Position numbers and translations under genes: made by a program. A model generated the notes under the pieces. It saw only the letters and a program-made list of their open reading frames with translations. It was not told where the DNA came from and searched no databases. This document shows, piece by piece, positions 1-15,761 of a stretch of DNA of 15,761 bases. The stretch's first letter is position 1, and the number at the start of each line of letters is the position of its first letter. Source of the stretch: a virus; the UHGV virus genome UHGV-0242293; one strand, 5' to 3'.

Positions 1-140
1 ATGGATAAATATCAAATCTGGGAAAAACAAAAAGACACCATCGCCCATAAAGAATATTTAAAAATTTCCGACACCAATTTACTTGGACATATACACATTG
101 CCAATTATGAGGTGATTCAAAGTGAATTAAGCAAATTCAA

Positions 141-409
141 CACCTTCCGTGGGGGAGCAGGTGCTGATTCTGGCCGTGGGCGGTGAACTCGACACGGCGT
201 TCGTTCTGCCGGGGATTTATTCCAGTGATAACCCCGCGCCGTCTGCGTCGGAGGATGCCCTGCATATCCGTTTCCCTGACGGGGCGGTGATTGAGTATGA
301 ACCCGAAACCAGTGCACTCACGGCAAGCGGAATTAAAACGGCCAGCGTGATGGCTTCTGATTCTGTTACTGCCACGGTGCCGGTGGTCACGGTGAAAGCA
401 TCAACCCGC
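141..409 (+). pseudogene. Inverted, diverged internal fragment of a P2-type baseplate spike gene V (codons ~63-156), no start codon
   Basis: Plus-strand translation (ORF 149..430) matches residues ~63-156 of the intact gpV encoded on the minus strand at 571-1206, with scattered substitutions (roughly 95% nucleotide identity by eye). Homology begins near 141 (caccttccgtggggga) and ends at 409 (gtgaaagcatcaacccgc). Confidence 0.75.
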
Positions 410-574
410 CTGCGGCTGGTCAATCATTGATGCCAGCAACGAGCCATAATCACGACGCATCACCCGCGAGCCGACCGGTGTACGCAGGATATCGCCGATA
501 CTCTGGCTGATATGCTCAAGGTCAGTGACAGTCAGGCCATCACTGCGATTCATTCCGAGATAACGCGCTGTCAT
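401..574 (-). pseudogene. W: Truncated baseplate wedge gene W: 55 codons of P2 gpW-like N-terminus, then 2 foreign codons and a stop
   Basis: Minus-strand translation from the ATG at 574 reads MTARYLGMNRSDGLTVTDLEHISQSIGDILRTPVGSRVMRRDYGSLLASMIDQPQ, matching the P2 gpW N-terminus from memory, then AG-stop. The start overlaps the V stop as ATGA. The ORF is cut off by the junction with the inverted V fragment at 409/410. Confidence 0.75.
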
Positions 575-1206
575 AAAGGACTCCCGGTTGTGCCGCCGCT
601 GTCGCCGGGGTGTTTATGGGTATGCAGTACCTTACCGTTTGATGAGAGTTCACCGCCGGTGTGTTCAATGTTGCCGCGCATCGTCCCGCCCTTCTGCACT
701 TCCAGCGTGCCGGTAGTCAGTTTGTTGGTGCAGACCACTTCCGGTGTGTCCAGGGTGATGCGGGTTGATGCTTTCACCATAACCACCGGCACCGTGGCAG
801 TAACAGAATCAGAAGCCATCACGCTGGCCGTTTTAACTCCGCTTACCGTGAGCGCACTGGTTTCAGGTTCATACTCAATCACCGCCCCGTCAGGGAAACG
901 GATATGCAGGGCATCCGCCGACGCAGACGGCGCGGGGTTATCGCCGGAATAAATCCCCGGCAGAACGAACGCCGTGTCGAGTTCACCGCCCACGGCCAGA
1001 ATCAGCACCTGTTCCCCCACGGAAGGTGCCCACCATGTGCGCGAACGTCCGGCGCGATGGGTCAGCCACTGAAGCCAGTCGGTGCACATGCCGCCGGTCT
1101 GCACACGGCAGCGACCGGCGTTAAGGTCGGTTTCGACGACAAGGCCGGTGCGGATCATGTTGCGCAGTGCGCGCGCGAGTTCCTGAATATTTGCGAGAGT
1201 GTTCAT
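571..1206 (-). CDS. V: Baseplate spike / tail spike protein gpV
   Basis: 211-aa ORF whose translation (MNTLANIQELARALRNMIRTGLVVETDLNAGRCRV...) matches P2 gpV from memory in length and sequence. Confidence 0.9.
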   Translation of the reverse strand: MNTLANIQELARALRNMIRTGLVVETDLNAGRCRVQTGGMCTDWLQWLTHRAGRSRTWWAPSVGEQVLILAVGGELDTAFVLPGIYSGDNPAPSASADALHIRFPDGAVIEYEPETSALTVSGVKTASVMASDSVTATVPVVMVKASTRITLDTPEVVCTNKLTTGTLEVQKGGTMRGNIEHTGGELSSNGKVLHTHKHPGDSGGTTGSPL

Positions 1207-1272
1207 AACGGGAAGGATGCCGCCGGGTCATACCGGCGGCAATGTGACGATGAGGTGTCGGGGATGGCACAA

Positions 1273-1725
1273 CTAACGGTCGAGGTGCGCCAGAATAATC
1301 TCTTCAATCATCTGCACATCCTCACCGGTAAAGCCGAGCAGAGGACGCGCCGGATAATCAATTTTCTTACCGTCTTTCCGGGTTTCTTCCGACAGACCGA
1401 ACTGATGCACGCTGGCGATTTTCGGTGACTTCCCGCCGTAAAACTCCATTGATGCCTGTTCCGGGCTGGCGCGGATATGCAAAAAACGACTGGTGATAAG
1501 TTTCGCAAACATTTTTCGCTTAACGCGACCGGTCTTTTTTCTGGCGCTCTGCTGCTGGCGTGGCGCGTAGGGGGTGCCGTCCGGGGCTTTCTGTGCCATC
1601 ACACGATGCTGCTGACTCTGCCGCAGACGTTTCGCCAGTTCGGCACTCAGTCGCCGACGCCCTGATGGTGACAGCGACTCAATCAGTCCGGTCAGCCGGT
1701 CTTCAAAACGCTTAAACTCATTCAT
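1273..1725 (-). CDS. S: Tail completion protein gpS
   Basis: 150-aa ORF (MNEFKRFEDRLTGLIESLSPSGRRRLSAELAKRL...) matching P2 gpS; position between R and V is syntenic. Confidence 0.9.
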   Translation of the reverse strand: MNEFKRFEDRLTGLIESLSPSGRRRLSAELAKRLRQSQQHRVMAQKAPDGTPYAPRQQQSARKKTGRVKRKMFAKLITSRFLHIRASPEQASMEFYGGKSPKIASVHQFGLSEETRKDGKKIDYPARPLLGFTGEDVQMIEEIILAHLDR

Positions 1726-2185
1726 CCCACTTGCTCACCAGTTCGCCATTGATATAAAGCTCCACCGGGCGGGTGACCGGCTCCGGCGGCGTGGGTTCCG
1801 GGATATTCTTCACATGCAGCGCGCCGTCCACCTCACTGACCAGCGTGCGCTCGGTCAGCATCAGGCTGATGCTGATATCAAAGCTGCTGTCATTGTTGAT
1901 GTCTGCATAAAACGTGAAACCTTTTTTCTGGCCTTCGTCGGTGGTCATGATGTCGGGCTGATTTTCCCGCAGCCACGCCAGCACCGGCACGATGAGCAGG
2001 TCAAAATCACCGGTAAAGTCGGTCACAATGACATTGAGCGTGTAACGCTTTTCGAATGACAGCGACGTCGCCAGTGTGGAGGCAATACTCCCGTTATCCA
2101 CGAATATCCGCAGCATCTCGGGGCTGGTTTTCAGCACCGTGACGGCATCAGTCAGCGCCCTGCGCAGGCTGTCGGGTTTGAGCAT
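1718..2185 (-). CDS. R: Tail completion protein gpR
   Basis: 155-aa ORF (MLKPDSLRRALTDAVTVLKTSPEMLRIFVDNGS...) matching P2 gpR; 8-nt overlap with S. Confidence 0.9.
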   Translation of the reverse strand: MLKPDSLRRALTDAVTVLKTSPEMLRIFVDNGSIASTLATSLSFEKRYTLNVIVTDFTGDFDLLIVPVLAWLRENQPDIMTTDEGQKKGFTFYADINNDSSFDISISLMLTERTLVSEVDGALHVKNIPEPTPPEPVTRPVELYINGELVSKWDE

Positions 2186-2438
2186 CGTTTTCGTCCTGAC
2201 AGTGTTTAATCATTTTTACCTGGCTGGCACAGCGTGCCAGCGCGTTCTCAAGCTGCCGGATATCGGCACTTAAATCGCCGTTCGTCTGCGGGTCACTGCC
2301 CGGCATCGGGCAAAGACTCACTTTCGGGCAGGCGTTGGGGACAATCACTGGCGTCAGTGCAGGCCGGACGCTGGTGCAACCGGCGCACAGCATCAGGCAG
2401 GTCAGCACCGTACCAGCGGCGAAAATCTTCGTTTTCAT
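2148..2438 (-). CDS. lysC: LysC, Rz1-like outer-membrane lipoprotein spanin, embedded out of frame in lysB and overlapping R
   Basis: Internal ATG at 2438 preceded by a GAGG Shine-Dalgarno. Product begins MKTKIFAAGTVLTCLMLCAGC, with a signal peptide and lipobox (LCAG-C) and a Pro-rich mature part. 96 codons, as in P2 LysC. Confidence 0.75.
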   Translation of the reverse strand: MKTKIFAAGTVLTCLMLCAGCTSVRPALTPVIVPNACPKVSLCPMPGSDPQTNGDLSADIRQLENALARCASQVKMIKHCQDENDAQTRQPAQGAD

Positions 2439-2718
2439 TGAGTAACCTCGTGATGGTTTTCTCGCGCTGTGCTTCACGCTTCGCGGCGTTCTCCAGTTCC
2501 TGACGCAGTGCCACCTGCGCCAGCTCGTTTTTGTCTGCTCTGGTGAGGGCAACATGAAGCTGATTTTTCAGCATGGTGATGGTCACCTGCTGTTCACTGG
2601 CGACGTTGTTCACCCTGTCCAGCGAGGCGCGCAGGCTGGCGTTTTCATGCTTCGCCAGAAACAGACCCGCCACCGCCAGCGATAACAACACAACCATCAC
2701 AATCATCAGCCTTGACAT
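2293..2718 (-). CDS. lysB: LysB, Rz-like inner-membrane spanin
   Basis: 141-aa ORF with an N-terminal TM helix (IVMVVLLSLAVAGLFL) followed by a coiled-coil-like region; position and length match P2 LysB. Confidence 0.85.
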   Translation of the reverse strand: MSRLMIVMVVLLSLAVAGLFLAKHENASLRASLDRVNNVASEQQVTITMLKNQLHVALTRADKNELAQVALRQELENAAKREAQREKTITRLLNENEDFRRWYGADLPDAVRRLHQRPACTDASDCPQRLPESESLPDAGQ

Positions 2719-3131
2719 GGTTCCCGCCCCTCAAAACGCTGACGGCAGGCCGTACGTATCAGCCGGAAGAACACCGATACCACGAGGTAAATCAGCGCAG
2801 TAAAAATCCACCCGGCAGCGACCAGCGAGATAAATGTCGCCACCATCACCACCAGAGCCGCTGCCCGCCTGCGCCACGGCACCGGCTGCAAAAACAGCGA
2901 CGTGACAATCTTCACGGCCAGCGATTCCGGCGGCAGCTCCCGCCCGTAGCGTTCCAGCACATACTCCGTGGCATACACGCCGACACCACCGGCAACCACA
3001 CAGATAACCGTCGCCAGAATCGCCCAGGCAGCGACAAAACTGACGACCACGCTCTGCGGGTAAATCAGGGACAGTGCCAGCATCAGCGCCAGCGACACGT
3101 GCAGCATCAGTGAAAGGGATAATTTCTTCAT
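2706..3131 (-). CDS. lysA: LysA, membrane protein of the lysis cassette (lysis timing)
   Basis: 141-aa ORF with several hydrophobic helices; syntenic with and the same length as P2 LysA. Confidence 0.85.
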   Translation of the reverse strand: MKKLSLSLMLHVSLALMLALSLIYPQSVVVSFVAAWAILATVICVVAGGVGVYATEYVLERYGRELPPESLAVKIVTSLFLQPVPWRRRAAALVVMVATFISLVAAGWIFTALIYLVVSVFFRLIRTACRQRFEGREPCQG

Positions 3132-3145
3132 GGTGTTTACTCCGT

Positions 3146-3643
3146 TTAAGCCGGTACGCCGCCAGCGGTACGCCAGACGGTGACCAGTTTTTCCAGTGAA
3201 TGCTCACGCTGACCGTAACCGGCACCCGGCAGGGACGCCCAGATATTGCGACAGCGTGAAATGGCGCGCTCAATGCGTCCCGCCCGGATGTCATCCAGTG
3301 CTCCGCGTTCGCGGATCAACTGAATGGCGAGTCTGTCCTGTGACAACGGACTAAAATCCGGCAGGGCAAGCTGTTTGCGGTAATGCGGCCAGAACAGGTA
3401 AAGCTGCTGATAGCGACCGGAGGCCGTGGATTTTTCACCGCGACGGTTAAACACCTTCGCCGGTCGGCCATGTGCGAACGGGTGGTCACTGTAGTCGGTG
3501 AAGATTTCCGGCTTTCCGTCCAGTCCGGTGACTATCACGTCATAGCCCCGGTTTTTCGTCAGCGGATGATTCGCCGTCCCTTCGGACACGGCCAGCATGT
3601 CGAGAAAGGCCGCGATATTCTGATGCGTGTTAATTACCGGCAT
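3146..3643 (-). CDS. K: Endolysin gpK (lysozyme-like)
   Basis: 165-aa ORF (MPVINTHQNIAAFLDMLAVSEGT...) matching P2 gpK; directly downstream of the holin. Confidence 0.9.
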   Translation of the reverse strand: MPVINTHQNIAAFLDMLAVSEGTANHPLTKNRGYDVIVTGLDGKPEIFTDYSDHPFAHGRPAKVFNRRGEKSTASGRYQQLYLFWPHYRKQLALPDFSPLSQDRLAIQLIRERGALDDIRAGRIERAISRCRNIWASLPGAGYGQREHSLEKLVTVWRTAGGVPA

Positions 3644-3924
3644 TACTGTTTCCCCCTGCCCTTAAAACGGCGCTGAATGGCAATCTCAATCACCTGATAA
3701 CCGGCGATACCCAGCATGGAGCCGATACCGCACACCGCAGGCAGTGACAGGTCAGGAAACTGCACCAGAACAACACCGGCAACCATCGAGACAAAACCAC
3801 CGAGCAACATGCGCCCGATAAACAGACGCGGGGTGATGGGTTCACCACCGGCAAGCACCTTGCCGACAACAATCAGCACCCCAATCATGAAAAGCGACAG
3901 GACGCTTTTTTCTTCTGCTGTCAT
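3643..3924 (-). CDS. Y: Holin gpY
   Basis: 93-aa ORF with hydrophobic helices and a charged C-terminus (RRFKGRGKQ); matches P2 gpY in length and position. Confidence 0.88.
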   Translation of the reverse strand: MTAEEKSVLSLFMIGVLIVVGKVLAGGEPITPRLFIGRMLLGGFVSMVAGVVLVQFPDLSLPAVCGIGSMLGIAGYQVIEIAIQRRFKGRGKQ

Positions 3925-3927
3925 GCG

Positions 3928-4131
3928 TTACTCCCACAGATTGACAGTTTCAGCCACGGGCGCGGTCTGAACGTCGGGCAGTTCGACGGCGGTGCCGTGC
4001 GGCAGCACCGCACCCAGTTCAGCCAGTCCCGGATTTGCGGCGAGCACGGCCTTGAGCACGCCCTCAGTGCGCCCGTAATACCGGACACAGATGGCGTCGA
4101 GCGTGTCGCCCTGTAGCGCAAAGGTCTTCAT
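3928..4131 (-). CDS. X: Tail protein gpX
   Basis: Internal start at 4131 (MKTFALQGDTLDAICVRYYGRTEGVLKAVLAANPGL...) gives 67 aa as in P2 gpX; ATGA overlap with the L stop. The 90-aa ORF in the track is an upstream extension. Confidence 0.85.
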   Translation of the reverse strand: MKTFALQGDTLDAICVRYYGRTEGVLKAVLAANPGLAELGAVLPHGTAVELPDVQTAPVAETVNLWE

Positions 4132-4640
4132 CAGATTTGACTCACAATGCAGCGCGGCTTGTCCTGGATTCGCGCCACTGCCCAGCGCATATCCCGCCAC
4201 AGCTCATCAATGGTGCTGTCAATGCTGTCGGCCTTCTTGTCGCCTTTGGCACTGGCATCCACGCCGCGATAACGCTCATAAAGCGATGCGGTCGCCATCG
4301 CACACACGGCGCGCTCGTAGTAAAAAACTTTGATGCTTTCACCGTCGATGTCGTCCGCCGGGACTTCCGCCAGACGCGTAAAACCGGCGGCAATTTTCTG
4401 TTCGCGGTACTCGTACAGCTCCGCATTCGTCTCCGCCATGCCTGACTTGATGGCCTCACGCAGACGGGCGGGGGCGACGGTCTGCTCAAGGCGCATACGT
4501 TCCCGGACGCGCTTCGGGTCGATATCGGGAAAAAAGAACGTGTTTTTAATCACCGGCTCGTCGCCTGCCGGTTGCGGGATGACCACCGTACCCTCACCGG
4601 ACACGGGAGCCTCCTTTCGCGGAATAATCAGCGTCATCAT
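4131..4640 (-). CDS. L: Head completion / stabilisation protein gpL
   Basis: Start chosen at MMTLIIPRKEAPVSGEG (4640), giving 169 aa as in P2 gpL; the track ORF extends 20 codons further upstream. Confidence 0.85.
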   Translation of the reverse strand: MMTLIIPRKEAPVSGEGTVVIPQPAGDEPVIKNTFFFPDIDPKRVRERMRLEQTVAPARLREAIKSGMAETNAELYEYREQKIAAGFTRLAEVPADDIDGESIKVFYYERAVCAMATASLYERYRGVDASAKGDKKADSIDSTIDELWRDMRWAVARIQDKPRCIVSQI

Positions 4641-4739
4641 GACTACCTCTGAAAAGTCGGGCGGTGGACGCCGGTGCAGTGTCAGGTGATTCACCCTCAC
4701 TGACCGGCGTGCCGCCCTGGCGCGGGGCGCATTCGGTTG

Positions 4740-5483
4740 TTAACTGGCTTTCTTTTTCGGGCGTCCACGTTTTGCCGGTGTCACGCTCCGGGTCTTACGC
4801 GGGGCGCGGGTGGCCGCTTTGGGCTGCGGCTCCGGCTTCGGTTTCAGCTCCCGCTCCAGTCGTTCAATCTCTTTTTTGACACCTGCCTGACAGTCGAGCT
4901 GTGTCGCACGTTGCAGGTGAGCCAGCGCACCGGCGGCATCACCACCATCACGCAGAAGCAGACCGGTGATTTTGTGCAGCTTTGCGCGCACTTCATCAGG
5001 CATGTCAGCCGTGGCGGTCAGTTCAAGGGTCTCCGTCAGCAGGCGGGTATCCACAGACTCACCGGCAGCGTGGGCGCGCATGGCCGCTAGCGCCACCTCC
5101 TCGGTGAACATGTATGGCGGGGTGCGGCGGTGTTTACCCGGCATGGTCAGACCGTACTTCAGGGCATAACGGGCAATCTCCAGCGCACCGCTAATATCGC
5201 CGGTATCCAGACGCCACAGCATGACCGTCATCAGAATGTCATCCTGTGCACCTTTGCCCTGCTCCAGCACGCCGTTCACCCACGGCAACCAGAACGGCAG
5301 CAGTTCGCGTTTTTTCGCGGCCTTCAGCTCTTTTGAATAAATCGCTTTCAGTGTGCGCTGGTCTGCGGCGAGCTTAACCAGCATCTGCTCATAGACAGTT
5401 GCATGTCGCAGCGGGGCGGCTTCCCGCTGCGCGGTCATCGCTGCCGAGACCCGCATCATGTGGCGCTGTGCGGGACTCGTCAT
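4740..5483 (-). CDS. M: Terminase small (endonuclease) subunit gpM
   Basis: 247-aa ORF (MTSPAQRHMMRVSAAMTAQREAAPL...) with a basic C-terminal tail; matches P2 gpM. Confidence 0.9.
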   Translation of the reverse strand: MTSPAQRHMMRVSAAMTAQREAAPLRHATVYEQMLVKLAADQRTLKAIYSKELKAAKKRELLPFWLPWVNGVLEQGKGAQDDILMTVMLWRLDTGDISGALEIARYALKYGLTMPGKHRRTPPYMFTEEVALAAMRAHAAGESVDTRLLTETLELTATADMPDEVRAKLHKITGLLLRDGGDAAGALAHLQRATQLDCQAGVKKEIERLERELKPKPEPQPKAATRAPRKTRSVTPAKRGRPKKKAS

Positions 5484-5486
5484 CGG

Positions 5487-6560
5487 TTACGCTCCCGGCT
5501 CTGCGGTCGCTTTAGCCAGTGTGGAGAAATCACCGACCTTAATTTTTTCCACCAGACAACCGGCGGCGTAGTCCTCCACCACGTAATCAATGTTCATTGA
5601 CTCGTAGTTCTCCACGCGGTCGAGTTTCGGGTTTTCCTCAATCACGCGGCGATGGCTGTCATCCATGTAGTAGATGGACAGGTTTTCCAGCTTCGTGATG
5701 AGCATCGCATCCGCCGGGAAGTACGGGACGCGTACCGCTGGCAGGTTGCCGATGCGTTTCTGGCTGATGATGACGTCAGCGGCCAGCATTTCGCTGTTGT
5801 CCTGCTCCTTGTTGACGATGGGAAAATACTTGTCCGCCAGTAGCTGACGTCCCACAATCACCACAAGGTCAGGGTCTTCCTGATACCACGGCTCAATCAG
5901 GTTGTTGGTCGCATCCATCACCAGTGCATCAAGGCTGGCATAATCACCGCCCTTACCCACGCGGATGACCTCAGAGGTGGTGTGCCCTTCCTCGTCAGTG
6001 ACCTTGCTCATCACGCGCGCCGGGGCTTCATTGCGGTATTTCTGCAGCCAGCCGACCGCCACATCCTGCAGCATCGGATTGCTGCTGCGGTCAGAGGTTT
6101 CGGCACGCCTCACGCCGTTAAAACCGGCCATGATTAAATCAAGGGACTGGCGTTTGATAATGGCGTTACGGACACGGAGCTGGAAATCCTGATAACGCGC
6201 CCACAGATCCAGCGTTTTGTAGCGGATATAAAAATCGAAGTTAATCTGGTCGCATTCGTACTTGTTTGACGCCAGCTTCGAGAAGTCCTTCGGCTGACGC
6301 TCGGTGCCACCGGCGGTGTCGGTGGTGCTGGCGATGGAGCCGGTGACACCAATACCAATTTTTTCCCCTTTCATTTCGCTGACCGGCACAATGTTGATGC
6401 GGGTCAGAAAGTCAGAGGACTCCTGCATGGTGTTCATCAGGGTCTGGGTGACCGACGGTTCAACGGTGAATTTTTTCGACACATCACCGGCGTCGATGCC
6501 GTTCAGTTCGGCAACACGGGACAGGTAGGCATTAAATTTAAAGCGGGTTTCCTGGCGCAT
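5487..6560 (-). CDS. N: Major capsid protein gpN
   Basis: 357-aa ORF (MRQETRFKFNAYLSRVAELNGIDAGD...) matching P2 gpN in length and sequence. Confidence 0.92.
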   Translation of the reverse strand: MRQETRFKFNAYLSRVAELNGIDAGDVSKKFTVEPSVTQTLMNTMQESSDFLTRINIVPVSEMKGEKIGIGVTGSIASTTDTAGGTERQPKDFSKLASNKYECDQINFDFYIRYKTLDLWARYQDFQLRVRNAIIKRQSLDLIMAGFNGVRRAETSDRSSNPMLQDVAVGWLQKYRNEAPARVMSKVTDEEGHTTSEVIRVGKGGDYASLDALVMDATNNLIEPWYQEDPDLVVIVGRQLLADKYFPIVNKEQDNSEMLAADVIISQKRIGNLPAVRVPYFPADAMLITKLENLSIYYMDDSHRRVIEENPKLDRVENYESMNIDYVVEDYAAGCLVEKIKVGDFSTLAKATAEPGA

Positions 6561-6618
6561 AGTTTTTCCTGAAATTAAGGGTTAATCGTGAAGGTTTTCC
6601 CGGACTGACTGACGCCGG

Positions 6619-7473
6619 TCAGCAGTTCGTCATCAGGGCGTCACCGCCACCACCGGTGGCCTTGCTGCGGCGCTGCTGGGTCAGACTTTCGGTGTGGTCG
6701 AGACTGTTTTTCAGGCGGGTGAATGCCTGGCTGGTTTCATCCGCCCTGTCAGTCACCTCCTGCTTAAGTGCAGAAAAGGCGGTTTCCATCTCAGCGAGGC
6801 GCTGCTCAGTGGCGCTCAGTTTTTCCTGCACATGTTCAGCAACAGCGGTCACCGCTTCATGCACGTCATTCAGACGGGCGTCATCGCTGGCCTGTTTGCG
6901 GCCAAAAATGGATTTCACCTTTTCGGTCAGGGCGGTGAACACGGTTTCAGGCAGGTCTTCAAATTCCAGCTCAACGGGCGTTGCCACTGAAATCAGGTTT
7001 TCAGGGCTTAATTTGAAGCGGTTCAGAGGGTTGTGTTTTGCCGTGCGGCAGAATTCCAGGTATTCCGTGCCGAGGCTTGCCGGGTCATCGGTGACGGCCA
7101 GCCCCACCAGATAACATTTGCCGGTGTTGGCAAAGTTCGGCTGAATTTCCATTGAGGTATAGACCTTCTGCGCGGCCTTGTTCATCGCGATAAGGTCATC
7201 GGTCGGGGTGATTTTCGCAAACAGCGCCCATTTGCCTTTCAGCGCCGAATCATCGTCAATCTTTTCGGCCTTCAGTTCGGCCACATCGCCATAACGTTTA
7301 AAAATACCGTCAGGCAGGATGCCGCGCAGATGTTCCAGGTTAATGCGGCAACCATAGACTCGCGGGTCAAAGGTTTCGGCCATTTCCTGAATATCCTGCG
7401 CACTGATGACACGCCCGTCACAGGTGTCACCCTCAACGCCGATACGAAAGAATTTTGAGACTTTTTTTGCCAT
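6619..7473 (-). CDS. O: Capsid scaffolding protein gpO
   Basis: Start chosen at MAKKVSKFFRIGVEGDTCDG (ATG at 7473), giving 284 aa as in P2 gpO; the track ORF 6619..7539 is an upstream extension. Confidence 0.9.
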   Translation of the reverse strand: MAKKVSKFFRIGVEGDTCDGRVISAQDIQEMAETFDPRVYGCRINLEHLRGILPDGIFKRYGDVAELKAEKIDDDSALKGKWALFAKITPTDDLIAMNKAAQKVYTSMEIQPNFANTGKCYLVGLAVTDDPASLGTEYLEFCRTAKHNPLNRFKLSPENLISVATPVELEFEDLPETVFTALTEKVKSIFGRKQASDDARLNDVHEAVTAVAEHVQEKLSATEQRLAEMETAFSALKQEVTDRADETSQAFTRLKNSLDHTESLTQQRRSKATGGGGDALMTNC

Positions 7474-7646
7474 TGTCAGGAGTCCTGAATAGTGATTAGA
7501 GGAGTCACATGTCGGCATCAGTTTCCCGACGATACGCATCCTCCGCCATCAGTCCCGGATGGCTTATCACTGACACAACAGCACCTTAGCGAATCGCGGG
7601 GCGCGACTCAGTAGCCTTGCCGTGTATTCATCACGGCGAGGTATTC
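7474..7646. promoter_or_regulatory. Divergent O/P intergenic region, expected site of the divergent late promoters
   Basis: 173-bp gap between the divergently transcribed O and P genes. In P2 the late promoters for the O and P operons lie here. I did not find an exact TGT-N12-ACA activator dyad by eye, so promoter elements are not pinpointed. Confidence 0.4.
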
Positions 7647-9419
7647 ATGACCATCACCACAGACACCACTCTTTTACACGACCCGCGTCGTCAGGCGGCG
7701 CTGCTGTACTGGCAGGGGTTTTCCGTGCCGCAGATTGCCGCCATGTTGCAGATGAAACGCCCGACGGTGCAGAGCTGGAAACAGCGCGACGGCTGGGACA
7801 GCGTTGCCCCCATCAGCCGTGTCGAAATGAGTCTGGAAGCGCGGCTGACCCAGCTCATCATCAAACCGCAGAAAACCGGCGGTGACTTCAAGGAAATTGA
7901 CCTGCTGGGACGTCAGATTGAACGACTGGCACGGGTCAACCGCTACAGTCAGACCGGCAACGAGGCAGACCTTAATCCGAACGTCGCTAACCGCAACAAA
8001 GGCGGGCGTCGCAAACCGAAAAAGAATTTTTTCAGTGACGAGGCCATCGAAAAGCTGGAGCAGATTTTCTTTGAGCAGTCTTTCGAATATCAGTTGCACT
8101 GGTATCGCGCCGGGCTTGAGCACCGCATCCGCGATATCCTGAAATCCCGCCAGATTGGCGCGACGTTTTATTTTTCCCGCGAGGCGCTGCTGCGCGCCCT
8201 GAAAACCGGTCATAACCAGATTTTTCTGTCGGCCAGTAAAACGCAGGCGTATGTGTTCCGCGAATACATCATCGCCTTTGCCCGGCTGGTTGACGTTGAC
8301 CTGACCGGTGACCCGATTGTCCTGGGCAATAACGGCGCAAAACTGATTTTTCTCGGCACCAACTCCAACACCGCACAGAGCCATAACGGCGACCTGTACG
8401 TCGACGAGATTTTCTGGATCCCGAATTTTCAGGTACTGCGTAAGGTGGCATCAGGTATGGCCTCACAGAGTCACCTGCGCTCGACCTATTTCTCCACCCC
8501 GTCCACGCTGGCGCACGACGCCTACCCGTTCTGGTCGGGTGAACTGTTCAACCGGGGACGCGCCAGCGCCGCCGAACGCGTGGAAATCGACGTCAGTCAT
8601 AACGCCCTTGCCGGAGGTCTTCTCTGTGCGGACGGCCAGTGGCGGCAGATTGTCACCATTGAGGACGCCCTGAAAGGCGGCTGCACGCTGTTCGACATTG
8701 AGCAGCTCAAACGTGAAAACAGCGCCGACGATTTTAAAAACCTGTTCATGTGTGAATTTGTTGACGACAAGGCGTCGGTGTTCCCGTTCGAGGAGCTGCA
8801 ACGTTGCATGGTCGACACGCTGGAAGAATGGGAAGACTATGCGCCGTTTGCCGCAAATCCGTTCGGCTCCCGCCCGGTATGGATTGGTTACGACCCGTCA
8901 CACCGTGGCGACAGCGCCGGATGCGTGGTACTGGCACCGCCGGTGGTGGCCGGTGGCAAATTCAGAATACTTGAGCGTCACCAGTGGAAAGGCATGGACT
9001 TTGCCACCCAGGCGGAATCCATCCGCAAACTCACCGAAAAATATAACGTTGAATACATCGGGATTGATGCCACCGGCCTCGGTGTCGGCGTGTTCCAGCT
9101 CGTGCGCTCGTTCTATCCCGCCGCGCGCGATATCCGCTACACGCCGGAAATGAAAACCGCAATGGTGCTCAAGGCAAAAGACGTTATCCGCCGTGGCTGT
9201 CTGGAATATGACGTCAGCGCCACCGACATCACCAGCTCGTTTATGGCTATCCGCAAGACCATGACCAGCAGCGGACGCAGCGCCACCTATGAGGCCAGCC
9301 GCAGCGAGGAAGCCAGCCACGCCGATCTCGCCTGGGCGACTATGCACGCCCTGTTAAATGAGCCACTCACCGCCGGTATCAGCACCCCGCTGACATCCAC
9401 CATTCTGGAGTTTTACTGA
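7647..9419 (+). CDS. P: Terminase large (ATPase) subunit gpP
   Basis: Start at MTITTDTTLLHDPRRQAALLYWQGF (ATG 7647, SD ggcgagg upstream) gives 590 aa, matching P2 gpP; the track ORF starts 10 codons earlier. Confidence 0.92.
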   Translation: MTITTDTTLLHDPRRQAALLYWQGFSVPQIAAMLQMKRPTVQSWKQRDGWDSVAPISRVEMSLEARLTQLIIKPQKTGGDFKEIDLLGRQIERLARVNRYSQTGNEADLNPNVANRNKGGRRKPKKNFFSDEAIEKLEQIFFEQSFEYQLHWYRAGLEHRIRDILKSRQIGATFYFSREALLRALKTGHNQIFLSASKTQAYVFREYIIAFARLVDVDLTGDPIVLGNNGAKLIFLGTNSNTAQSHNGDLYVDEIFWIPNFQVLRKVASGMASQSHLRSTYFSTPSTLAHDAYPFWSGELFNRGRASAAERVEIDVSHNALAGGLLCADGQWRQIVTIEDALKGGCTLFDIEQLKRENSADDFKNLFMCEFVDDKASVFPFEELQRCMVDTLEEWEDYAPFAANPFGSRPVWIGYDPSHRGDSAGCVVLAPPVVAGGKFRILERHQWKGMDFATQAESIRKLTEKYNVEYIGIDATGLGVGVFQLVRSFYPAARDIRYTPEMKTAMVLKAKDVIRRGCLEYDVSATDITSSFMAIRKTMTSSGRSATYEASRSEEASHADLAWATMHALLNEPLTAGISTPLTSTILEFY

Positions 9420-10438
9420 TGAGTAAGAAAAAAGGGAAAACACCGCAGCCAGCGGTGAAAACAATGACTGCCAGCGCCCCGAAAATGGAGGCATTCACCT
9501 TTGGTGAGCCGGTGCCGGTACTCGACCGCCGTGATATTCTGGATTACGTCGAGTGCATCAGTAACGGCAGATGGTATGAGCCACCGGTCAGCTTTACCGG
9601 TCTGGCAAAAAGCCTGCGTGCTGCCGTGCATCACAGCTCACCGATTTACGTTAAACGCAATATTCTGGCTTCAACGTTTATCCCGCACCCGTGGCTGTCC
9701 CAGCAGGATTTCAGCCGCTTTGTGCTGGATTTTCTGGTGTTCGGTAATGCGTTTCTGGAAAAGCGTTACAGCACCACCGGTAAGGTCATCAGACTGGAAA
9801 CCTCACCGGCAAAATATACCCGCCGTGGCGTGGAGGAGGATGTTTACTGGTGGGTGCCGTCCTTCAACGAGCCGACAGCCTTCGCGCCCGGCTCCGTGTT
9901 TCACCTGCTGGAGCCGGATATCAATCAGGAGCTGTACGGCCTGCCGGAATATCTCAGCGCCCTTAACTCTGCCTGGCTGAATGAGTCGGCCACGCTGTTC
10001 CGCCGCAAGTATTACGAAAACGGCGCTCATGCCGGATACATCATGTATGTCACCGATGCCGTGCAGGATCGCAACGATATCGAAATGCTTCGCGAAAACA
10101 TGGTTAAGTCGAAAGGCCGCAACAACTTTAAAAACCTGTTTCTCTATGCCCCACAGGGGAAAGCCGACGGCATTAAAATTATCCCCCTCAGTGAAGTGGC
10201 GACGAAGGACGATTTTTTTAATATCAAAAAAGTCAGCGCCGCAGATCTCCTGGACGCACACCGCATCCCCTTTCAGTTGATGGGCGGTAAGCCGGAGAAT
10301 GTCGGGTCACTAGGAGATATTGAAAAAGTGGCAAAGGTCTTTGTCCGCAATGAACTCATTCCATTACAGGAGAGAATAAAGTCAATAAATGAATGGTTAG
10401 ATATGGAAGTAATAAAATTCCTTGATTATAACTTATAA
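9419..10438 (+). CDS. Q: Portal protein gpQ
   Basis: 339-aa ORF (MSKKKGKTPQPAVKTMTASAPKMEAFTFGEP...) matching P2 gpQ; start overlaps the P stop (TGATG). The last ~15-30 codons are AT-rich, suggesting the 3' end was remodelled by the adjacent insertion. Confidence 0.88.
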   Translation: MSKKKGKTPQPAVKTMTASAPKMEAFTFGEPVPVLDRRDILDYVECISNGRWYEPPVSFTGLAKSLRAAVHHSSPIYVKRNILASTFIPHPWLSQQDFSRFVLDFLVFGNAFLEKRYSTTGKVIRLETSPAKYTRRGVEEDVYWWVPSFNEPTAFAPGSVFHLLEPDINQELYGLPEYLSALNSAWLNESATLFRRKYYENGAHAGYIMYVTDAVQDRNDIEMLRENMVKSKGRNNFKNLFLYAPQGKADGIKIIPLSEVATKDDFFNIKKVSAADLLDAHRIPFQLMGGKPENVGSLGDIEKVAKVFVRNELIPLQERIKSINEWLDMEVIKFLDYNL

Positions 10439-10449
10439 GTAAATATATA

Positions 10450-10478
10450 AAGTTGGCGGAATGCAATCCCGCCAACTT
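10450..10478. terminator. Perfect 10-bp hairpin between convergent Q and the retron effector gene; candidate bidirectional terminator
   Basis: aagttggcgg-(9 nt loop)-ccgccaactt read directly from the sequence, lying between the Q stop (10438) and the minus-strand effector stop (10481), with A/T-rich flanks on both sides. Confidence 0.5.
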
Positions 10479-10480
10479 AA

Positions 10481-11188
10481 CTATATATACTTCCTTTTTA
10501 CTCTACTTAATTCTATCACTGATGAGGAGTGACAAAATGACAAATTAATAGTATCGATATAATCCAAAATTTGACTCTCAACCTCAATAAAAATATTTTT
10601 GGGCCCATTACTAATCGATATACCGATTTCATCCAAAACAGCCATCATTTTTCTCTGATGAGTTTTATATTTATAGTCTTTATTTTCCTCTGTAATATGT
10701 GCATTGGCTTCCTCAATAACACATTTGATTCTAGATATTATTTCTAGATAATCTCTCGAAACAGATATATCACCGCCTTGCGCTTCAGGGAACATAACCC
10801 TATACCATCTAAAAAAATTAACTTTCTCTGGATAGATGCTACTTCTTTTAGTTAACTCAGCACTTGCAAATTCTCTAAACATCGTCAGATGACTAGTGTA
10901 ATTACTATTATTATTATTTTTAACTCCAGCGTTATATGTCATCAAAGCAATCATAACACCAAAAACGGTAACAAAAGTTGTTATAAGCCATCCAAACGCC
11001 TGAAAATACATTACTATACCAGATGTTTTTTCCGCAAAAAATTTTAAGCACTGGCTATCGAAGCATATATCACGCTCATATAGCTTTTCATTCTGAATAG
11101 TTTCAAAAAGAGAAATTAGCGAAAAAATCAAAAAAAGAGCTGACGACACACCGACAATATATTTGAGAAGTCTAATATTTGCATTCAT
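10481..11188 (-). CDS. Retron-associated effector: two N-terminal transmembrane helices plus a ~150-aa soluble C-terminal domain of unknown function
   Basis: 235-aa ORF. Hydrophobic stretches LLKYIVGVSSALFLIFSLISLF and IVMYFQAFGWLITTFVTVFGVMIALMTY. Its ATG overlaps the RT stop as ATGA (11185-11188), indicating translational coupling. AT-rich, unlike the phage backbone. Confidence 0.75.
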   Translation of the reverse strand: MNANIRLLKYIVGVSSALFLIFSLISLFETIQNEKLYERDICFDSQCLKFFAEKTSGIVMYFQAFGWLITTFVTVFGVMIALMTYNAGVKNNNNSNYTSHLTMFREFASAELTKRSSIYPEKVNFFRWYRVMFPEAQGGDISVSRDYLEIISRIKCVIEEANAHITEENKDYKYKTHQRKMMAVLDEIGISISNGPKNIFIEVESQILDYIDTINLSFCHSSSVIELSRVKRKYI

Positions 11189-12375
11189 AATGGTTTTAAA
11201 GATGCCAATCTAGATTTAAAACACTCCAGTTTTTCTTTAAATGATTCAGAGCGAGTAAGAATAATCATCTTATATTTCGTCAAATCATATTTTCTTTTAT
11301 ACCAATGTTTATTTTGATTACCTTTCGAATACGACAACTCTAAACTTTTTATAGCTGCATCAATCACAGCAACATCTCTTTTAGATGGCATCGGTTTTAT
11401 TGCCTGCAACTGTTTCTTGAATGATTCATATTTTTCATGCGCAACACGGCCAAGCTTATTCACTCTCCCCATACATCTATTGAATTCTTTTCTGTATGCA
11501 ACACTTGTTTTTGTGTTATTTTTTGCCGCCAGTAATTTCAAATTATGTATAGATGCCCTGATTCTTTTGACTTCATCGGATGGTAGTCGAGGTGAGTCAT
11601 AGTCAACTCTTAAACCATGTACTTTTATAGGTTCAGATGAACAGTGAAATATTTTAGTTTTGCGCTTATTTATCGGCAAGTCATGCTCAGAAAGCATCCT
11701 CTCTATATGGCTTTGCATTTGAGAAAAATCATAATTACTTATTTTAGATGACACGGTAATATCATCTACCAAACGCGTATAAACAAGTCCTTTCCTCTGC
11801 GCACGTCTTACCACATCCCCTTCAACAGCGAATAAACACAAAGTTGCTATATAGCTTGATGTTAAGGCCCCCTGTACGACAAAATCATCCTTAGTACATA
11901 TATCCACCAAGTATTCAAGAGCCTCATCCTTAATATGCAATATCTCCTCAAACACGCTCCTAACCAGATCTCTATGGATATTATCGAAAAAATTACTTAT
12001 ATCCACCTTGAGAACTGTTTTTGCTCCACAATGAGCCTTTGCACATGAAACATAGTCACGTTTGACATTAGAATTTAAAACATCATTTTTACTGGGAACT
12101 GAACCAAACAAAAATGAAGGAAAAACAACCAATTCCTTAAAGATACGTTTATTAATTCTACTCTGTAATAATCTCATTTTAGGATGCAGGGAGTAGACAA
12201 TCCGTTTGCTTCCGTCAATTTTGGGAATTTCTTTTAGAGTATATTTCTCATCTAATGGTAATTCTGCAATAGCTTTAAGCTCTTCAACAGAAATCGATAA
12301 AGCCTTTGACAACTTTTCAAGTGTTGTGATAGGAGCATTGGATTTGCTGTATGGTTTAAATTTATCCATAAACAT
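11185..12375 (-). CDS. Retron-type reverse transcriptase
   Basis: RT motifs in the translation: LKVDISNFFDNI (motif A), QGALTSSYIATLCLF (motif B), YTRLVDDITV (YxDD active site), NKRKTKIF, then KVHGLRV where retron RTs have the VTG signature. Block-by-block similarity to retron Ec86 RT from memory. Start is uncertain: 12375 or 12369 is favoured by alignment, but 12411 and 12459 are in frame. Confidence 0.85.
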   Translation of the reverse strand: MFMDKFKPYSKSNAPITTLEKLSKALSISVEELKAIAELPLDEKYTLKEIPKIDGSKRIVYSLHPKMRLLQSRINKRIFKELVVFPSFLFGSVPSKNDVLNSNVKRDYVSCAKAHCGAKTVLKVDISNFFDNIHRDLVRSVFEEILHIKDEALEYLVDICTKDDFVVQGALTSSYIATLCLFAVEGDVVRRAQRKGLVYTRLVDDITVSSKISNYDFSQMQSHIERMLSEHDLPINKRKTKIFHCSSEPIKVHGLRVDYDSPRLPSDEVKRIRASIHNLKLLAAKNNTKTSVAYRKEFNRCMGRVNKLGRVAHEKYESFKKQLQAIKPMPSKRDVAVIDAAIKSLELSYSKGNQNKHWYKRKYDLTKYKMIILTRSESFKEKLECFKSRLASLKPL

Positions 12376-12443
12376 ACCATTCAAATTCAAAGTTACGTAC
12401 GGTCTTCCCATACTCAAGGGTGGAACAGCAGAGATGCTTACAT

Positions 12444-12593
12444 CAACAATTGTCAGCAACAGCCTCTGCTATCTTTCGACCGTACGTAATGTCGTCGGCT
12501 ACGGCACCATCGTAGTTGACGACGGTGGGGCCTCGCTGATAGGTCCATAGTGGACGCTTTTTTGTAAAAGCAAAAACTGACAATTTAATGTTG
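12444..12593 (-). ncRNA. Candidate retron msr-msd non-coding RNA
   Basis: Immediately upstream of the RT on the same strand. An interrupted inverted repeat (minus strand caacaTTAAattgtcag at 12577-12593, and ctgacaattgttg at 12444-12456) brackets ~120 nt. Inside are stem-loops gcttttacaaaaaagc, gtccactatggac, and a longer imperfect hairpin gtcgtcaactacg/cgtagccgacgac. Boundaries and the branching G are not determined. Confidence 0.4.
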
Positions 12594-12646
12594 TTGACTG
12601 CCGCATACCAAGCGAATCGCTGGTGCGCTAAGAATAATGCAACAAA

Positions 12647-12676
12647 AAAATAAGAATTTCAACCGGGTAACTGCAA
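12647..12676 (-). promoter_or_regulatory. Candidate sigma70 promoter for the retron ncRNA-RT-effector operon
   Basis: On the minus strand: TTGCAG (12676-12671), an 18-nt spacer, then TATTTT (12652-12647), about 50 nt upstream of the proposed a1 repeat. Confidence 0.35.
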
Positions 12677-12700
12677 GCCAGCGACATCGTTTAGCGCGCA

Positions 12701-12719
12701 GTGCTTTCCCCGCCTCGCC
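12701..12719. other. P2-type cos site (19-nt cohesive end)
   Basis: The minus strand reads GGCGAGGCGGGGAAAGCAC, which is the P2 cohesive-end sequence as I recall it, followed by TGCGCGCT. It lies between the terminase/portal genes and the tin/old-equivalent locus, as expected. Confidence 0.8.
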
Positions 12720-12742
12720 CGCCCGCTTCATGGGGCGGTTTT
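12719..12742 (+). terminator. GC-rich hairpin plus T-tract next to cos; possible intrinsic terminator
   Basis: ccgccc-(8 nt)-gggcgg followed by tttt on the plus strand. It abuts the cos core, so it may instead be part of the packaging site. Confidence 0.3.
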
Positions 12743-12925
12743 AATGCAGTAGCATGACCACTCAACTAGCGCGCCAGTCCTGATGTCGCCAGGCAGTTAT
12801 TGTTCTCTGACTTGCGTGCGCTTCGATGCAGAGTAATGCACTTCCTGAATTGCTCGCATTCGCATCGTTATCATGATAGAAAACAGGTAGTTATTTGTGC
12901 GCAACTTAAGAAGAAATCACTAATT

Positions 12926-14470: not shown

Positions 14471-14569
14471 CGAAACAATGTTATTAACTCAACATGACTT
14501 CGTTAAGCATTAAAGCGAACAGTCATATGAAATTTCGACATCCCTAACGCCTCGCAAGCTCGTTGTTCA

Positions 14570-14614
14570 CCCCCGCCAGCACTGAAAGCGAGTTTCAGCG
14601 TCGACGGGGTTTTC
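14570..14614 (+). terminator. Candidate intrinsic terminator downstream of the Abi-like RT
   Basis: Imperfect GC-based hairpin (ccccg...ctgaaa-gcgag-tttcag...cgggg) followed by ttttc, about 100 nt after the RT stop. Confidence 0.4.
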
Positions 14615-14957: not shown

Positions 14958-15119
14958 TTATATGTTTGTTGAGAATCCCGGCCACTCATCAGCGACCGGA
15001 TACGTGAATTTTTCCCCGTCATAATTTACGGTCGCGCCACGCGCCAGCGCCTCAAGCTCCCATCGCTGTGGCCTGATACCGTTCTGAGCAAGGTCAACGC
15101 GGATACGGGTAATTTGCAT
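14958..15119 (-). CDS. Hypothetical small protein (53 aa), not in the ORF track (below 60 aa)
   Basis: Hand translation of the minus strand: MQITRIRVDLAQNGIRPQRWELEALARGATVNYDGEKFTYPVADEWPGFSTNI. Lies 61 nt upstream of the previous ORF on the same strand. No family recognised. Confidence 0.3.
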   Translation of the reverse strand: MQITRIRVDLAQNGIRPQRWELEALARGATVNYDGEKFTYPVADEWPGFSTNI

Positions 15120-15188
15120 TCGTTCCGACCGGGTCAGTCTGGCCGATGGCGCTATTTCATGCGGTTTTAACGGGCTTCCGTTTCTTTG

Positions 15189-15208
15189 CTGACATCGTGT
15201 TATGTCAG
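15189..15208. promoter_or_regulatory. Perfect 7-bp inverted repeat with a 6-bp spacer; candidate operator in a divergent intergenic region
   Basis: CTGACAT-cgtgtt-ATGTCAG read directly, about 70 nt upstream of the minus-strand 53-aa ORF and about 60 nt upstream of the plus-strand ORF at 15269. Confidence 0.3.
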
Positions 15209-15268
15209 TTTACTGGATACAGGGCAAGTGAATGCCCCTTTCCATGAATTAGATTAAAGGCTTGCAAA

Positions 15269-15472
15269 ATGAACAATAACAGTAAGAAAACTTTGAGTAA
15301 GAAAAGAACCAAGAAAGCCAAAAAGAAGTCGCTTACCCCTGAACAAAAAGCATTGCAAGCAGAACAAGCAGCAAAAAAAGCGCAAATTATAGAGAATAGG
15401 CGCTCTATTACAGCTCATGCTATTAATCTTTTTCAGCAATATACAGCACTCCGTAAAAAAGGATTGTCGTAA
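15269..15472 (+). CDS. Hypothetical small, very basic, Lys-rich protein (67 aa)
   Basis: ORF with an AAAGG Shine-Dalgarno 8 nt upstream of the ATG. Product MNNNSKKTLSKKRTKKAKKKSLTPEQKALQAEQAAKK... AT-rich context. Confidence 0.4.
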   Translation: MNNNSKKTLSKKRTKKAKKKSLTPEQKALQAEQAAKKAQIIENRRSITAHAINLFQQYTALRKKGLS

Positions 15473-15761
15473 ATGCCACTCTATAGCACTATCTTTTATA
15501 TGTATCTCGCAGACAGGGCATACAATAAGCCCCATAGATGTTACAGGTAGCTTTTTGCCACCGATTAAGCGTAATGTATTTGCATTCTGGTTATGTACTT
15601 TCTTTTGGTTCCTAACAATGAAACAATCAGAAGCGTGGAAACTCGCGACTGATGAAGAATCTAGTATGACTTTTTTAAGCAATCAGTACATAAGTCCATT
15701 AACATCACACGAACCCAATAATGAAATATCTCTTATCATGGATGGAACGGATATAGCCATT

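What the first reader, a model, noticed from the sequence alone, without database searches (positions are those of the whole stretch)
1..574. Rearranged left edge: W truncated and fused to an inverted, diverged copy of part of V, then AT-rich foreign DNA
Gene W stops after ~55 homologous codons at a sharp junction (409/410) with a 269-bp segment that is an inverted copy of the middle of gene V. That copy is not identical to the resident V 330 bp away, so it probably derives from a different P2-like phage rather than a recent duplication. At ~140 the homology ends in AT-rich sequence. The inverted repeats (141-409 versus ~753-1021) could promote further inversion. Tail genes beyond W are absent from this side, so the prophage is probably defective, or the assembly is chimeric.
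Basis: seen in the sequence. Interest (0 to 1): 0.6.

Follow-up and report, generated by a model that had tools for sequence, protein, structure and literature searches.

The report
Scrambled ends of a P2-like prophage contig
The inverted, diverged copy of the phage spike gene V is really in the sequence, but it belongs to a patchwork of short, bluntly joined pieces from other P2-like phages found at both ends of the window, so it is most likely a sequencing or assembly chimera and not a working genetic element.

Summary
Bases 141-409 are a sense-strand copy of V nt 179-447. They lie inverted relative to the resident V (571-1206, - strand) and differ from it at 10 of 269 bases. W stops after codon 55 at 409/410.

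The reading needs revision. All of 1-575 comes from one second P2-like lineage ("B": NCTC9040, a Logan contig and a gut-metagenome contig, 100% identical). It consists of three re-ordered pieces that lie within 1 kb of each other in B. The "AT-rich foreign DNA" is the first 141 nt of a 247-aa moron gene that sits between V and S in B, at the position of P2 orf30.

The right end of the window (15194-15761) is scrambled in the same style, using pieces of an HNH cargo gene from a third lineage. Bases 576-15193 match intact EC9-type prophages (one mismatch outside a B-like patch at 1525-2779).

The five junctions share 1, 0, 0, 1 and 0 bases and create no in-frame fusion. None was found in any collection searched.

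Best reading: chimeric contig ends from a sample holding several P2-like phages (about 0.62). Main rival: a real, private rearrangement scar (about 0.28). Interest is low.

The parts
1..141 (+). Piece L1: first 141 nt (47 codons) of a 247-aa AT-rich moron gene of P2-like lineage B. In B this gene lies between V and S, divergent from V, at the position of P2 orf30.
   Evidence: 100% identical to L001 6881-7021, L009 and L010, and 99.3% to L002. The gene is annotated as hypothetical in strain 144 and NCTC9040. It occurs in 12 of 5426 complete E. coli genomes and has no Pfam or PADLOC family. The P2 orf30 position is shown, and there is no similarity to Orf30.
141..409 (+). Piece L2: V nt 179-447 (codons 60-149) of lineage B, in sense orientation on the + strand, so inverted relative to the resident V. 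It is out of frame with piece L1.
   Evidence: 100% identical to L002, L009 and L010 V. It is 96.3% identical to the resident V and to EC9 V. ORF 1-186 stops at 186, and the V frame is ORF 149-430.
410..574 (-). Piece L3: W codons 1-55, carrying the lineage-B allele. The truncated ORF W' is 401-574 (57 aa).
   Evidence: No mismatch to L002, L009 or L010 over 410-575, and 3 mismatches to EC9 at 446, 467 and 482. Partial GPW_gp25 match. ORF listed.
483..575 (.). 93-nt interval identical in lineages A and B, within which the sequence switches from the B allele to the A allele (a homologous join).
   Evidence: Mismatch positions against L003 and against L002/L010. No complete genome matches 410-1300 at 100%.
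571..1206 (-). Resident, full-length V (211 aa), lineage-A (EC9-type) allele. Bases 760-1028 form the resident arm of the inverted repeat.
   Evidence: Pfam Phage_base_V, Phage_spike and Apex. Identical to EC9 over 483-1524. Repeat shown.
1525..2779 (.). B-like patch (S, R, lysC, lysB) inside the otherwise A-type backbone.
   Evidence: 44 mismatches to EC9 but only 3 to L010 in this stretch. Outside it, 0-1 mismatch to EC9. The best complete-genome match for 483-3400 is 98.5%.
14958..15193 (-). Last 236 nt of replication gene A, which is the right end of the collinear backbone.
   Evidence: The window is collinear with EC9 (L003) up to L003 16794, inside the 'replication endonuclease' CDS.
15194..15465 (+). 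Piece R1: sequence that lies just downstream of A in a third cargo type (upstream region plus the first 197 nt of an HNH-endonuclease gene). It is in fold-back orientation relative to A.
   Evidence: 100% identical to L004 5009-5280 and L005. HNH_2 domain in the intact gene.
15465..15611 (-). Piece R2: HNH gene nt 405-551, inverted relative to pieces R1 and R3.
   Evidence: 100% identical to L004 5634-5488.
15612..15761 (+). Piece R3: HNH gene nt 748-897, running to the end of the window. Its first base coincides with the right flank (CTAAC target duplication) of an IS2 insertion in strain W13-16.
   Evidence: Matches L004 5831-5980 and L005 4470-4619 with 2 mismatches. That IS2 insertion is present in 1 of 5426 genomes.

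Best explanation
The left edge is not a functional element or a single phage's gene arrangement. It is the end of a patchwork sequence. A 14.6-kb backbone (576-15193) belongs to an EC9-type P2-like prophage (lineage A). It carries short pieces of 141-280 nt at both ends, taken from other P2-like lineages and joined bluntly in alternating orientation.

On the left, three pieces of one donor lineage B are involved: moron nt 1-141, V nt 179-447 and W nt 1-165. They lie within 1.02 kb of each other in B. Here they are re-ordered, one is inverted, and the block merges into lineage A through a 93-nt identical stretch.

I think the most likely origin is non-biological. The sample would have contained two or three P2-like prophages or phages, and the ends of this contig would have been extended with chimeric molecules, reads or mis-joined small contigs. 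Possible sources are library or amplification chimeras and in-silico joining.

Shown: the piece map, the donor identities, the blunt junctions, the similar layout of the two ends, and the absence of the junctions from all collections searched.

Inferred: that the cause is technical, and which technical step was responsible.
For: 1. The three left pieces are each 100% identical to the same donor lineage but are in non-native order and orientation.

2. The right end of the window has the same architecture, built from a third lineage's HNH cargo gene: forward, inverted, forward, with 200-260-nt gaps.

3. The two ends are laid out alike. Reading outward from the backbone, the sequence jumps back inward by 350 nt (left) or 270 nt (right). 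It then has a piece of 269 or 272 nt in fold-back orientation, followed by a re-inverted piece of 141 or 147 nt.

4. The five junctions share 1, 0, 0, 1 and 0 bases. That is what random blunt joins would give. E. coli has no NHEJ, and its alternative end-joining uses microhomologies (PMC4872102).

5. None of the junctions, and none of the four chimeric ORFs tested, was found elsewhere. I searched 5426 complete E. coli genomes, INPHARED phages, PLSDB plasmids, IMG/VR, GTDB genome contigs, JGI metagenome contigs and the 153-billion gene-position index.

6. The pieces show no divergence from living relatives and create no in-frame fusion. The structure is therefore either very recent or not biological.

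7. The backbone also alternates between A and B alleles (the 1525-2779 patch), a combination not seen in any complete genome. This fits A and B DNA being present in the same sample.

8. Piece R3 starts exactly at an IS2 flank boundary. That is the kind of place where short-read contigs end.
Against: - No reads, assembly graph or provenance are available, so the technical cause is inferred and not observed.
- De Bruijn assemblers cannot create junctions without k-mer support. Chimeric molecules or a non-graph joining step must therefore be assumed.
- Piece boundaries do not sit at A/B divergence points or at the backbone/cargo boundary.
- The allele switch at 2780-2786 spans only 7 nt relative to L010. 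That looks more like natural mosaicism than a k-mer walk.
- The window starts exactly at the ATG of the moron fragment. That suggests it was cut at a gene boundary from a longer record, possibly a finished one. In that case 'contig end' would not apply to the left side.
- The source record appears to be absent from the collections, so uniqueness only shows that the structure is not shared by other strains.
Confidence: 0.62

Rival explanations
1. A real, strain-private rearrangement scar. In a cell carrying several P2-like prophages, or superinfected by them, breakage of the prophage within W and within A was repaired by illegitimate joining. Short fragments of the other phages were captured, and there was one homologous exchange (483-575). 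The result is a tail-less, non-inducible remnant.
For: - E. coli genomes commonly hold two or more P2-like prophages: the median is 2 matching places per genome.
- P2-like phages are natural mosaics, and the 1525-2779 B-like patch has a switch interval too short for a k-mer artefact.
- The window begins at a gene start, as a prophage region cut from a longer genome would. A remnant's deletion scars would naturally lie at the edges of such a region.
- All left pieces come from one donor and lie within 1 kb of the break.
Against: - It needs five illegitimate joins with 0-1 nt of microhomology in an organism without NHEJ (PMC4872102).
- It also needs three donor lineages and similar piece geometry at both ends.
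- No IS element or host DNA lies at any junction.
- No related strain has any intermediate.
- The pieces are undiverged.
Confidence: 0.28
2. Template switching by a DNA polymerase. This could be in vitro (phi29 multiple displacement amplification) or in vivo (tandem-inversion-duplication or U-turn type events). Either would give 'inverted segments with intervening deletions' within one donor molecule. The in-vitro version is a sub-case of the best explanation, and the in-vivo version is a sub-case of the first rival. It is listed separately because it makes a specific prediction about the junctions.
For: - MDA chimeras are more than 85% inverted sequences with intervening deletions, and intramolecular events are favoured (PMC1855051).
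- Both ends here consist of alternately inverted pieces a few hundred bp apart on the same donor lineage.
- The forward-inverted-forward order on the left matches the tandem-inversion-duplication layout (my own knowledge of Kugelberg et al. 2010, not re-read here).
Against: - More than 70% of MDA junctions use 2-21 nt of complementarity. Here all five junctions have 1 nt or less. If the junctions were independent, that would occur in about 0.3^5 of cases.
- Two or three switches within about 600 nt at each of two ends is far denser than expected.
- A tandem inversion duplication would need the two flanking forward copies to be the same allele. Here they are not: one has the moron, and the other lacks it and carries V of lineage A.
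Confidence: 0.15
3. A programmed system. Either the two V arms are crossover sites of an invertible switch, or they are a template/variable repeat pair of a diversity-generating retroelement that diversifies the spike protein.
For: - There is a 269-nt inverted repeat within and beside a virion gene.
- Two reverse transcriptases are encoded in the window.
- Related prophages carry a Hin/Gin-type recombinase near the tail-fibre genes.
Against: - The left arm is simply the natural V allele of another lineage, 100% identical.
- The 10 differences are mixed and mostly transitions, not adenine-specific.
- The RTs are a type IV (Ec48) retron and AbiP2, not DGR RTs.
- No recombinase gene is in the window.
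- Inversion would break V and restore nothing.
- The arrangement occurs in no other genome.
Confidence: 0.02

Closest known systems
P2 late region S - orf30 - V - W - J (Peduovirus; AF063097)
   Same: The gene order, orientation and identity of S, V and W match. There is an AT-rich non-essential ORF on the opposite strand between S and V in the donor lineage, exactly where P2 has orf30. The 576-15193 backbone matches intact EC9-type prophages.
   Different: In the window the moron is absent from its native site between V and S (1207-1272). Its first 141 nt appear instead beyond W, fused to an inverted V fragment. The moron protein is unrelated to P2 Orf30. W is cut at codon 55 and J is not present in the window.
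Chimeras formed in phi29 multiple displacement amplification (Lasken and Stockwell 2007, PMC1855051)
   Same: Inverted segments with intervening deletions of a few hundred bp, joined within one donor molecule.
   Different: All five junctions here have 0-1 nt of overlap, while most MDA junctions have 2-21 nt. Several switches are packed into about 600 nt. Nothing is known about the library preparation.
Tandem inversion duplication in Salmonella, and DUP-TRP/INV-DUP in humans (from my own knowledge, not re-read)
   Same: The forward - short inverted - forward order of neighbouring segments on the left edge (6881-7021, then 6619-6351, then 6001 onward in NCTC9040 coordinates).
   Different: The flanking copies are different alleles and have different gene content. 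There are no quasi-palindromes or microhomologies at the joints. The right edge has four alternating segments, not three.
Alternative end-joining in E. coli (Chayot et al. 2010, as cited in PMC4872102)
   Same: It can produce large deletions by RecA-independent joining.
   Different: It is described as using microhomologies as joining points. The junctions here use none beyond what chance would give.

Membership tests
P2-like (Peduovirus) prophage late region | Collinear order O-N-M-L-X-holin-lysin-lysA/B-R-S-V-W, with P and Q divergent | tested here: met
   410-15193 is collinear with the annotated EC9 prophage at 99.7%. ORF layout.
P2-like (Peduovirus) prophage late region | Intact V-W-J-I-H-G baseplate and fibre operon following V | tested here: not met
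   W ends after codon 55 at 409/410. What follows is an inverted V fragment and a moron fragment. J and the genes beyond it are not in the window.
gpV spike / baseplate protein | OB-fold domain, spike trimer and apex domains | tested here: met
   The resident ORF 571-1206 matches PF04717, PF18715 and PF18946. The left copy holds only codons 60-149.
MDA-type chimera | Inverted orientation with an intervening deletion, with both partners from the same molecule | tested here: met
   Piece map. All left pieces are 100% identical to one lineage.
MDA-type chimera | 2-21 nt complementary priming site at most junctions | tested here: not met
   The overlaps are 1, 0, 0, 1 and 0 nt, compared with more than 70% of junctions having 2-21 nt.
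Tandem inversion duplication | Two direct copies of the same segment flanking an inverted copy | tested here: not met
   The right-hand forward copy has the A-type V and no moron. The inverted copy and the left-hand copy are B-type.
Site-specific invertible segment (Gin/Cin/Hin type) | Short crossover sites in inverted repeat plus an adjacent serine recombinase, with both orientations functional | tested here: not met
   The arms are 269-nt coding copies. No recombinase ORF is in the window. Inversion would truncate V.
Diversity-generating retroelement | Template/variable repeat pair differing at adenines, plus a DGR-type RT | tested here: not met
   The differences are mixed substitutions. 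The left copy equals a natural allele. The RTs are retron type IV and AbiP2.
Assembly or library chimera | Junctions unsupported, or supported only at low depth, by reads; parental arrangements present in the sample | not testable with these tools
   No reads or assembly graph are available. The only indirect evidence is uniqueness, blunt joins and the similar layout of the two ends.

The most novel reading that the evidence does not exclude
The patchwork is real. In a lysogen carrying, or infected by, three different P2-like phages, both ends of a 14.6-kb prophage remnant were sealed by microhomology-independent capture of several 140-280-nt fragments of the other phages in alternating orientation. 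This would be an end-joining and fragment-capture activity not expected in E. coli. It might be linked to nuclease-based defence chopping incoming phage DNA.
Probability: 0.2. Interest if true: 0.45.

Novelty: not a real feature. Interest (0 to 1): 0.15.

Why it matters
If it is an artefact, the value is practical. The window should not be used to infer a defective prophage, a V inverted-repeat switch or a new fusion gene. The same caution applies to its right end.

If it were real, it would document multi-fragment, microhomology-free joining between co-resident P2-like phages in E. coli. That would be unusual for a species without NHEJ. It would still be a non-functional scar private to one strain.

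Tried and rejected
- **Recent duplication of the resident V.** Rejected. The copy is 100% identical to another lineage's V and 96% identical to the resident V.
- **DGR or invertible switch.** Rejected.
- **One donor phage for both ends.** The moron-bearing prophages I inspected carry other cargo between Q and A: NCTC9040 has none annotated, and strain 144 has a ComEC-like gene. For strain O18 the fetched stretch ended at the record start, inside the terminase gene, before the Q-A region. No genome seen has both the moron and the HNH gene, but the hit lists were truncated, so this is not excluded.
- **Pieces as de Bruijn bubble arms or repeat-bounded nodes.** Piece ends do not coincide with A/B SNP clusters or with the backbone/cargo boundary. 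Only piece R3 starts at a repeat (IS2) boundary.
- **Codon-boundary pattern of the piece ends.** Four or five of about 10 ends fall on codon boundaries, which is not distinguishable from chance (my arithmetic on coordinates).
- **Finding the source record.** Exact look-ups of the chimeric ORFs and of the window's retron RT variant found nothing. The LysB look-up returned only normal B-type contigs.
- **Rfam scan of the window.** No match.
- **Promoter and terminator scan of 1-1400.** Counts were at the level of the shuffled controls.

Full report

Yes. The repeat finder reports one long inverted repeat, with arms at 141-422 and 747-1028 (282 nt, 94%). It is the only repeat of 25 nt or more in the inverted class across the whole 15,761-nt window. 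Other inverted pairs are 15-24 nt at 71-87%.

Alignment shows that true homology covers 141-409 against 760-1028. That is 269 nt with 10 substitutions (96.3%). Bases 410-422 are a chance extension.

ORF 571-1206 (-) is a complete gpV, with Phage_base_V, Phage_spike and Apex matches. ORF 401-574 (-) is gpW codons 1-55 followed by two residues and a stop, with a partial GPW_gp25 match. Bases 1-200 have 41.5% GC, against 55-65% further in.

**2. What are the pieces?**

Megablast against 5426 complete E. coli genomes shows that 410-15193 is collinear at 99.7% with an intact, tail-bearing P2-like prophage, for example in strain EC9, integrated next to pflA. I call this lineage A.

The first 409 bases come from a different lineage, B. 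Examples of B are NCTC9040 and strain 144, plus a Logan contig and a human-gut metagenome contig found through the LysB look-up.

- Window 1-141 is the first 141 nt of a 247-aa hypothetical gene. In B this gene sits between V and S on the opposite strand.
- Window 141-409 is V nt 179-447 in sense orientation. It is 100% identical to V of lineage B.

The P2 record has the non-essential orf30 at the same position and orientation, but the two proteins are unrelated. The moron has no Pfam or PADLOC family. It occurs in only 12 of 5426 genomes and was not matched in any of the 50,697 phage records.

The W fragment itself carries the B allele. Window 410-575 has no mismatch to NCTC9040, L009 or L010, and three mismatches to EC9 at 446, 467 and 482. 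From 576 onward, V carries the A allele.

So the whole of 1-575 is lineage-B DNA in three pieces. In NCTC9040 coordinates these are 6881-7021 forward, 6619-6351 reversed, and 6001 onward forward. The pieces lie within 1.02 kb of each other in B, but here they are in a non-native order. They merge into lineage A inside a 93-nt stretch that is identical in both lineages (483-575).

**3. The right end of the window is scrambled in the same way.**

Collinearity with EC9 stops at 15193, which is 236 nt into the 3' end of replication gene A. Three pieces follow. All come from the cargo that lies downstream of A in a third type of P2-like prophage, an HNH-endonuclease gene (strains PEC41 and W13-16). 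In PEC41 coordinates the pieces are:

- 5009-5280 forward
- 5634-5488 reversed
- 5831-5980 forward

Reading outward from the backbone, the two ends have a similar layout.

| Feature | Left end | Right end |
|---|---|---|
| Jump back inward from the backbone end | 350 nt | 270 nt |
| First piece, fold-back orientation | 269 nt | 272 nt |
| Second piece, re-inverted | 141 nt | 147 nt |
| Span of the two pieces in the donor | 671 bp | 626 bp |

The last piece on the right starts to the base at the right flank of an IS2 insertion seen in W13-16, at the CTAAC target duplication. That insertion is found in 1 of 5426 genomes.

**4. Junctions.**

The five non-homologous junctions are at 140/141, 409/410, 15193/15194, 15465 and 15611/15612. 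They share 1, 0, 0, 1 and 0 bases between the partners. That is what random blunt joins would give.

No in-frame fusion is created. The moron frame runs into V out of frame and stops at 186, and W' ends two codons after the junction.

None of the junction sequences was found in:

- complete E. coli genomes
- INPHARED phages or PLSDB plasmids
- IMG/VR viral contigs
- GTDB genome contigs
- JGI metagenome contigs

The chimeric ORFs are also absent from the gene-position index.

**5. The backbone is also an A/B mosaic.**

Window 1525-2779 (S to lysB) has 44 mismatches to EC9 but only 3 to the B-type contig L010. On either side of that patch the window is identical to EC9, apart from one SNP at 11276. 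No complete genome has this combination; the best match for 483-3400 is 98.5%.

This shows that A-type and B-type DNA met. It could have happened by recombination in a cell or by mixing in a data set. The switch at 2780-2786 spans only 7 nt relative to L010. That favours natural mosaicism for this patch, unless the real B partner differs from L010.

**6. Interpretation.**

I favour a technical origin, at about 0.62. The sample would have held two or three P2-like phages. The ends of the contig would have been extended by chimeric molecules, reads or mis-joined small contigs. Four arguments support this.

- Both termini carry the same unusual architecture, while the 14.6 kb between them is ordinary.
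- The joins are blunt, in a species that lacks NHEJ and whose alternative end-joining uses microhomology (PMC4872102).
- The pieces are undiverged and form nothing functional.
- Nothing like this structure exists in thousands of related prophages.

The geometry of inverted segments with intervening deletions inside one donor molecule is that of phi29-MDA chimeras (PMC1855051). However, more than 70% of MDA junctions use 2-21 nt of complementarity, and none of the five here does. Blunt ligation or in-silico concatenation therefore fits better. I cannot tell which technical step was responsible.

The main rival, at about 0.28, is a real, strain-private scar in a polylysogen. It is kept alive by three points:

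- the window starts exactly at the ATG of the moron fragment, as a region cut at gene boundaries from a longer and perhaps finished record would;
- the edges of a prophage remnant are where scars are expected;
- the natural-looking patch at 1525-2779.

It would need five microhomology-free joins, three donor lineages and a coincidentally similar layout at the two ends.

A programmed inversion switch or a DGR is rejected:

- the left arm is simply another lineage's V allele;
- the differences are not adenine-specific;
- the RTs in the window are a type IV (Ec48) retron and AbiP2;
- no recombinase is present in the window;
- inversion would only destroy V.

**7.

- 'Derived from a different P2-like phage' is supported.
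- 'AT-rich foreign DNA' should be re-labelled as the 5' end of the moron from the donor's own orf30 position.
- 'Prophage probably defective because tail genes are absent' cannot be concluded from a window that ends there.
- 'Or the assembly is chimeric' is the option I consider most likely.

**8. Verdict.**

The sequence observation is real. As a biological feature it is most probably not real, and if it is real it is a non-functional scar private to one strain. Interest is low (0.15). Reads or long reads across the five junctions would settle the question.

Noticed in passing
window 15194-15761: The right end of the window is a second patchwork. It has three pieces (272, 147 and 150 nt) of an HNH-endonuclease cargo gene from another P2-like lineage, in forward/inverted/forward order, attached to the last 236 nt of gene A in fold-back orientation. 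The junctions are blunt and were not found elsewhere.
   Followed up: yes
window 1525-2779: A 1.25-kb patch (S, R, lysC, lysB) carries lineage-B alleles: 3 mismatches to the Logan contig L010 against 44 to EC9. It sits inside an otherwise EC9-identical backbone. No complete E. coli genome has this combination.
   Followed up: partly
window 10481-14470: The Q-A cargo hotspot holds two reverse-transcriptase defence systems. One is a type IV retron (Ec48 family): the 2TM effector at 10481-11188 and the RT at 11185-12369. The other is an AbiP2-type DRT at 12926-14470. This stretch is 100% identical to EC9 apart from one SNP at 11276. Rfam found no retron msr family at gathering threshold.
   Followed up: partly
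L001 6881-7624, L002 6881-7624 (window 1-141 is its 5' end): A 247-aa AT-rich ORF at the P2 orf30 position between V and S. It is present in only 12 of 5426 complete E. coli genomes and has no Pfam or PADLOC match and no similarity to P2 Orf30. It is an uncharacterised moron at an insertion site different from the better-known Q-A hotspot.
   Followed up: partly
window 15612; L005 3138-4469: Piece R3 begins exactly at the CTAAC target-site duplication that flanks an IS2 insertion in the HNH gene of strain W13-16 (O139:H1). That insertion is found in 1 of 5426 genomes. This may be chance, or it may hint that the source genome carries the same IS2 and that a contig boundary lay there.
   Followed up: partly
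window 11276: This is the only difference from EC9 across 2780-15193, and it lies inside the retron RT gene. The resulting 394-aa RT sequence is not on record in the gene-position index.
   Followed up: no
L009 5206-7122: The human-gut metagenome contig ERZ915955 k127_27185 has shortened gene calls for S, the moron and V, caused by 2 indels relative to the otherwise 99.9%-identical Logan contig L010. These are probably frameshift errors or a decaying copy.
   Followed up: no
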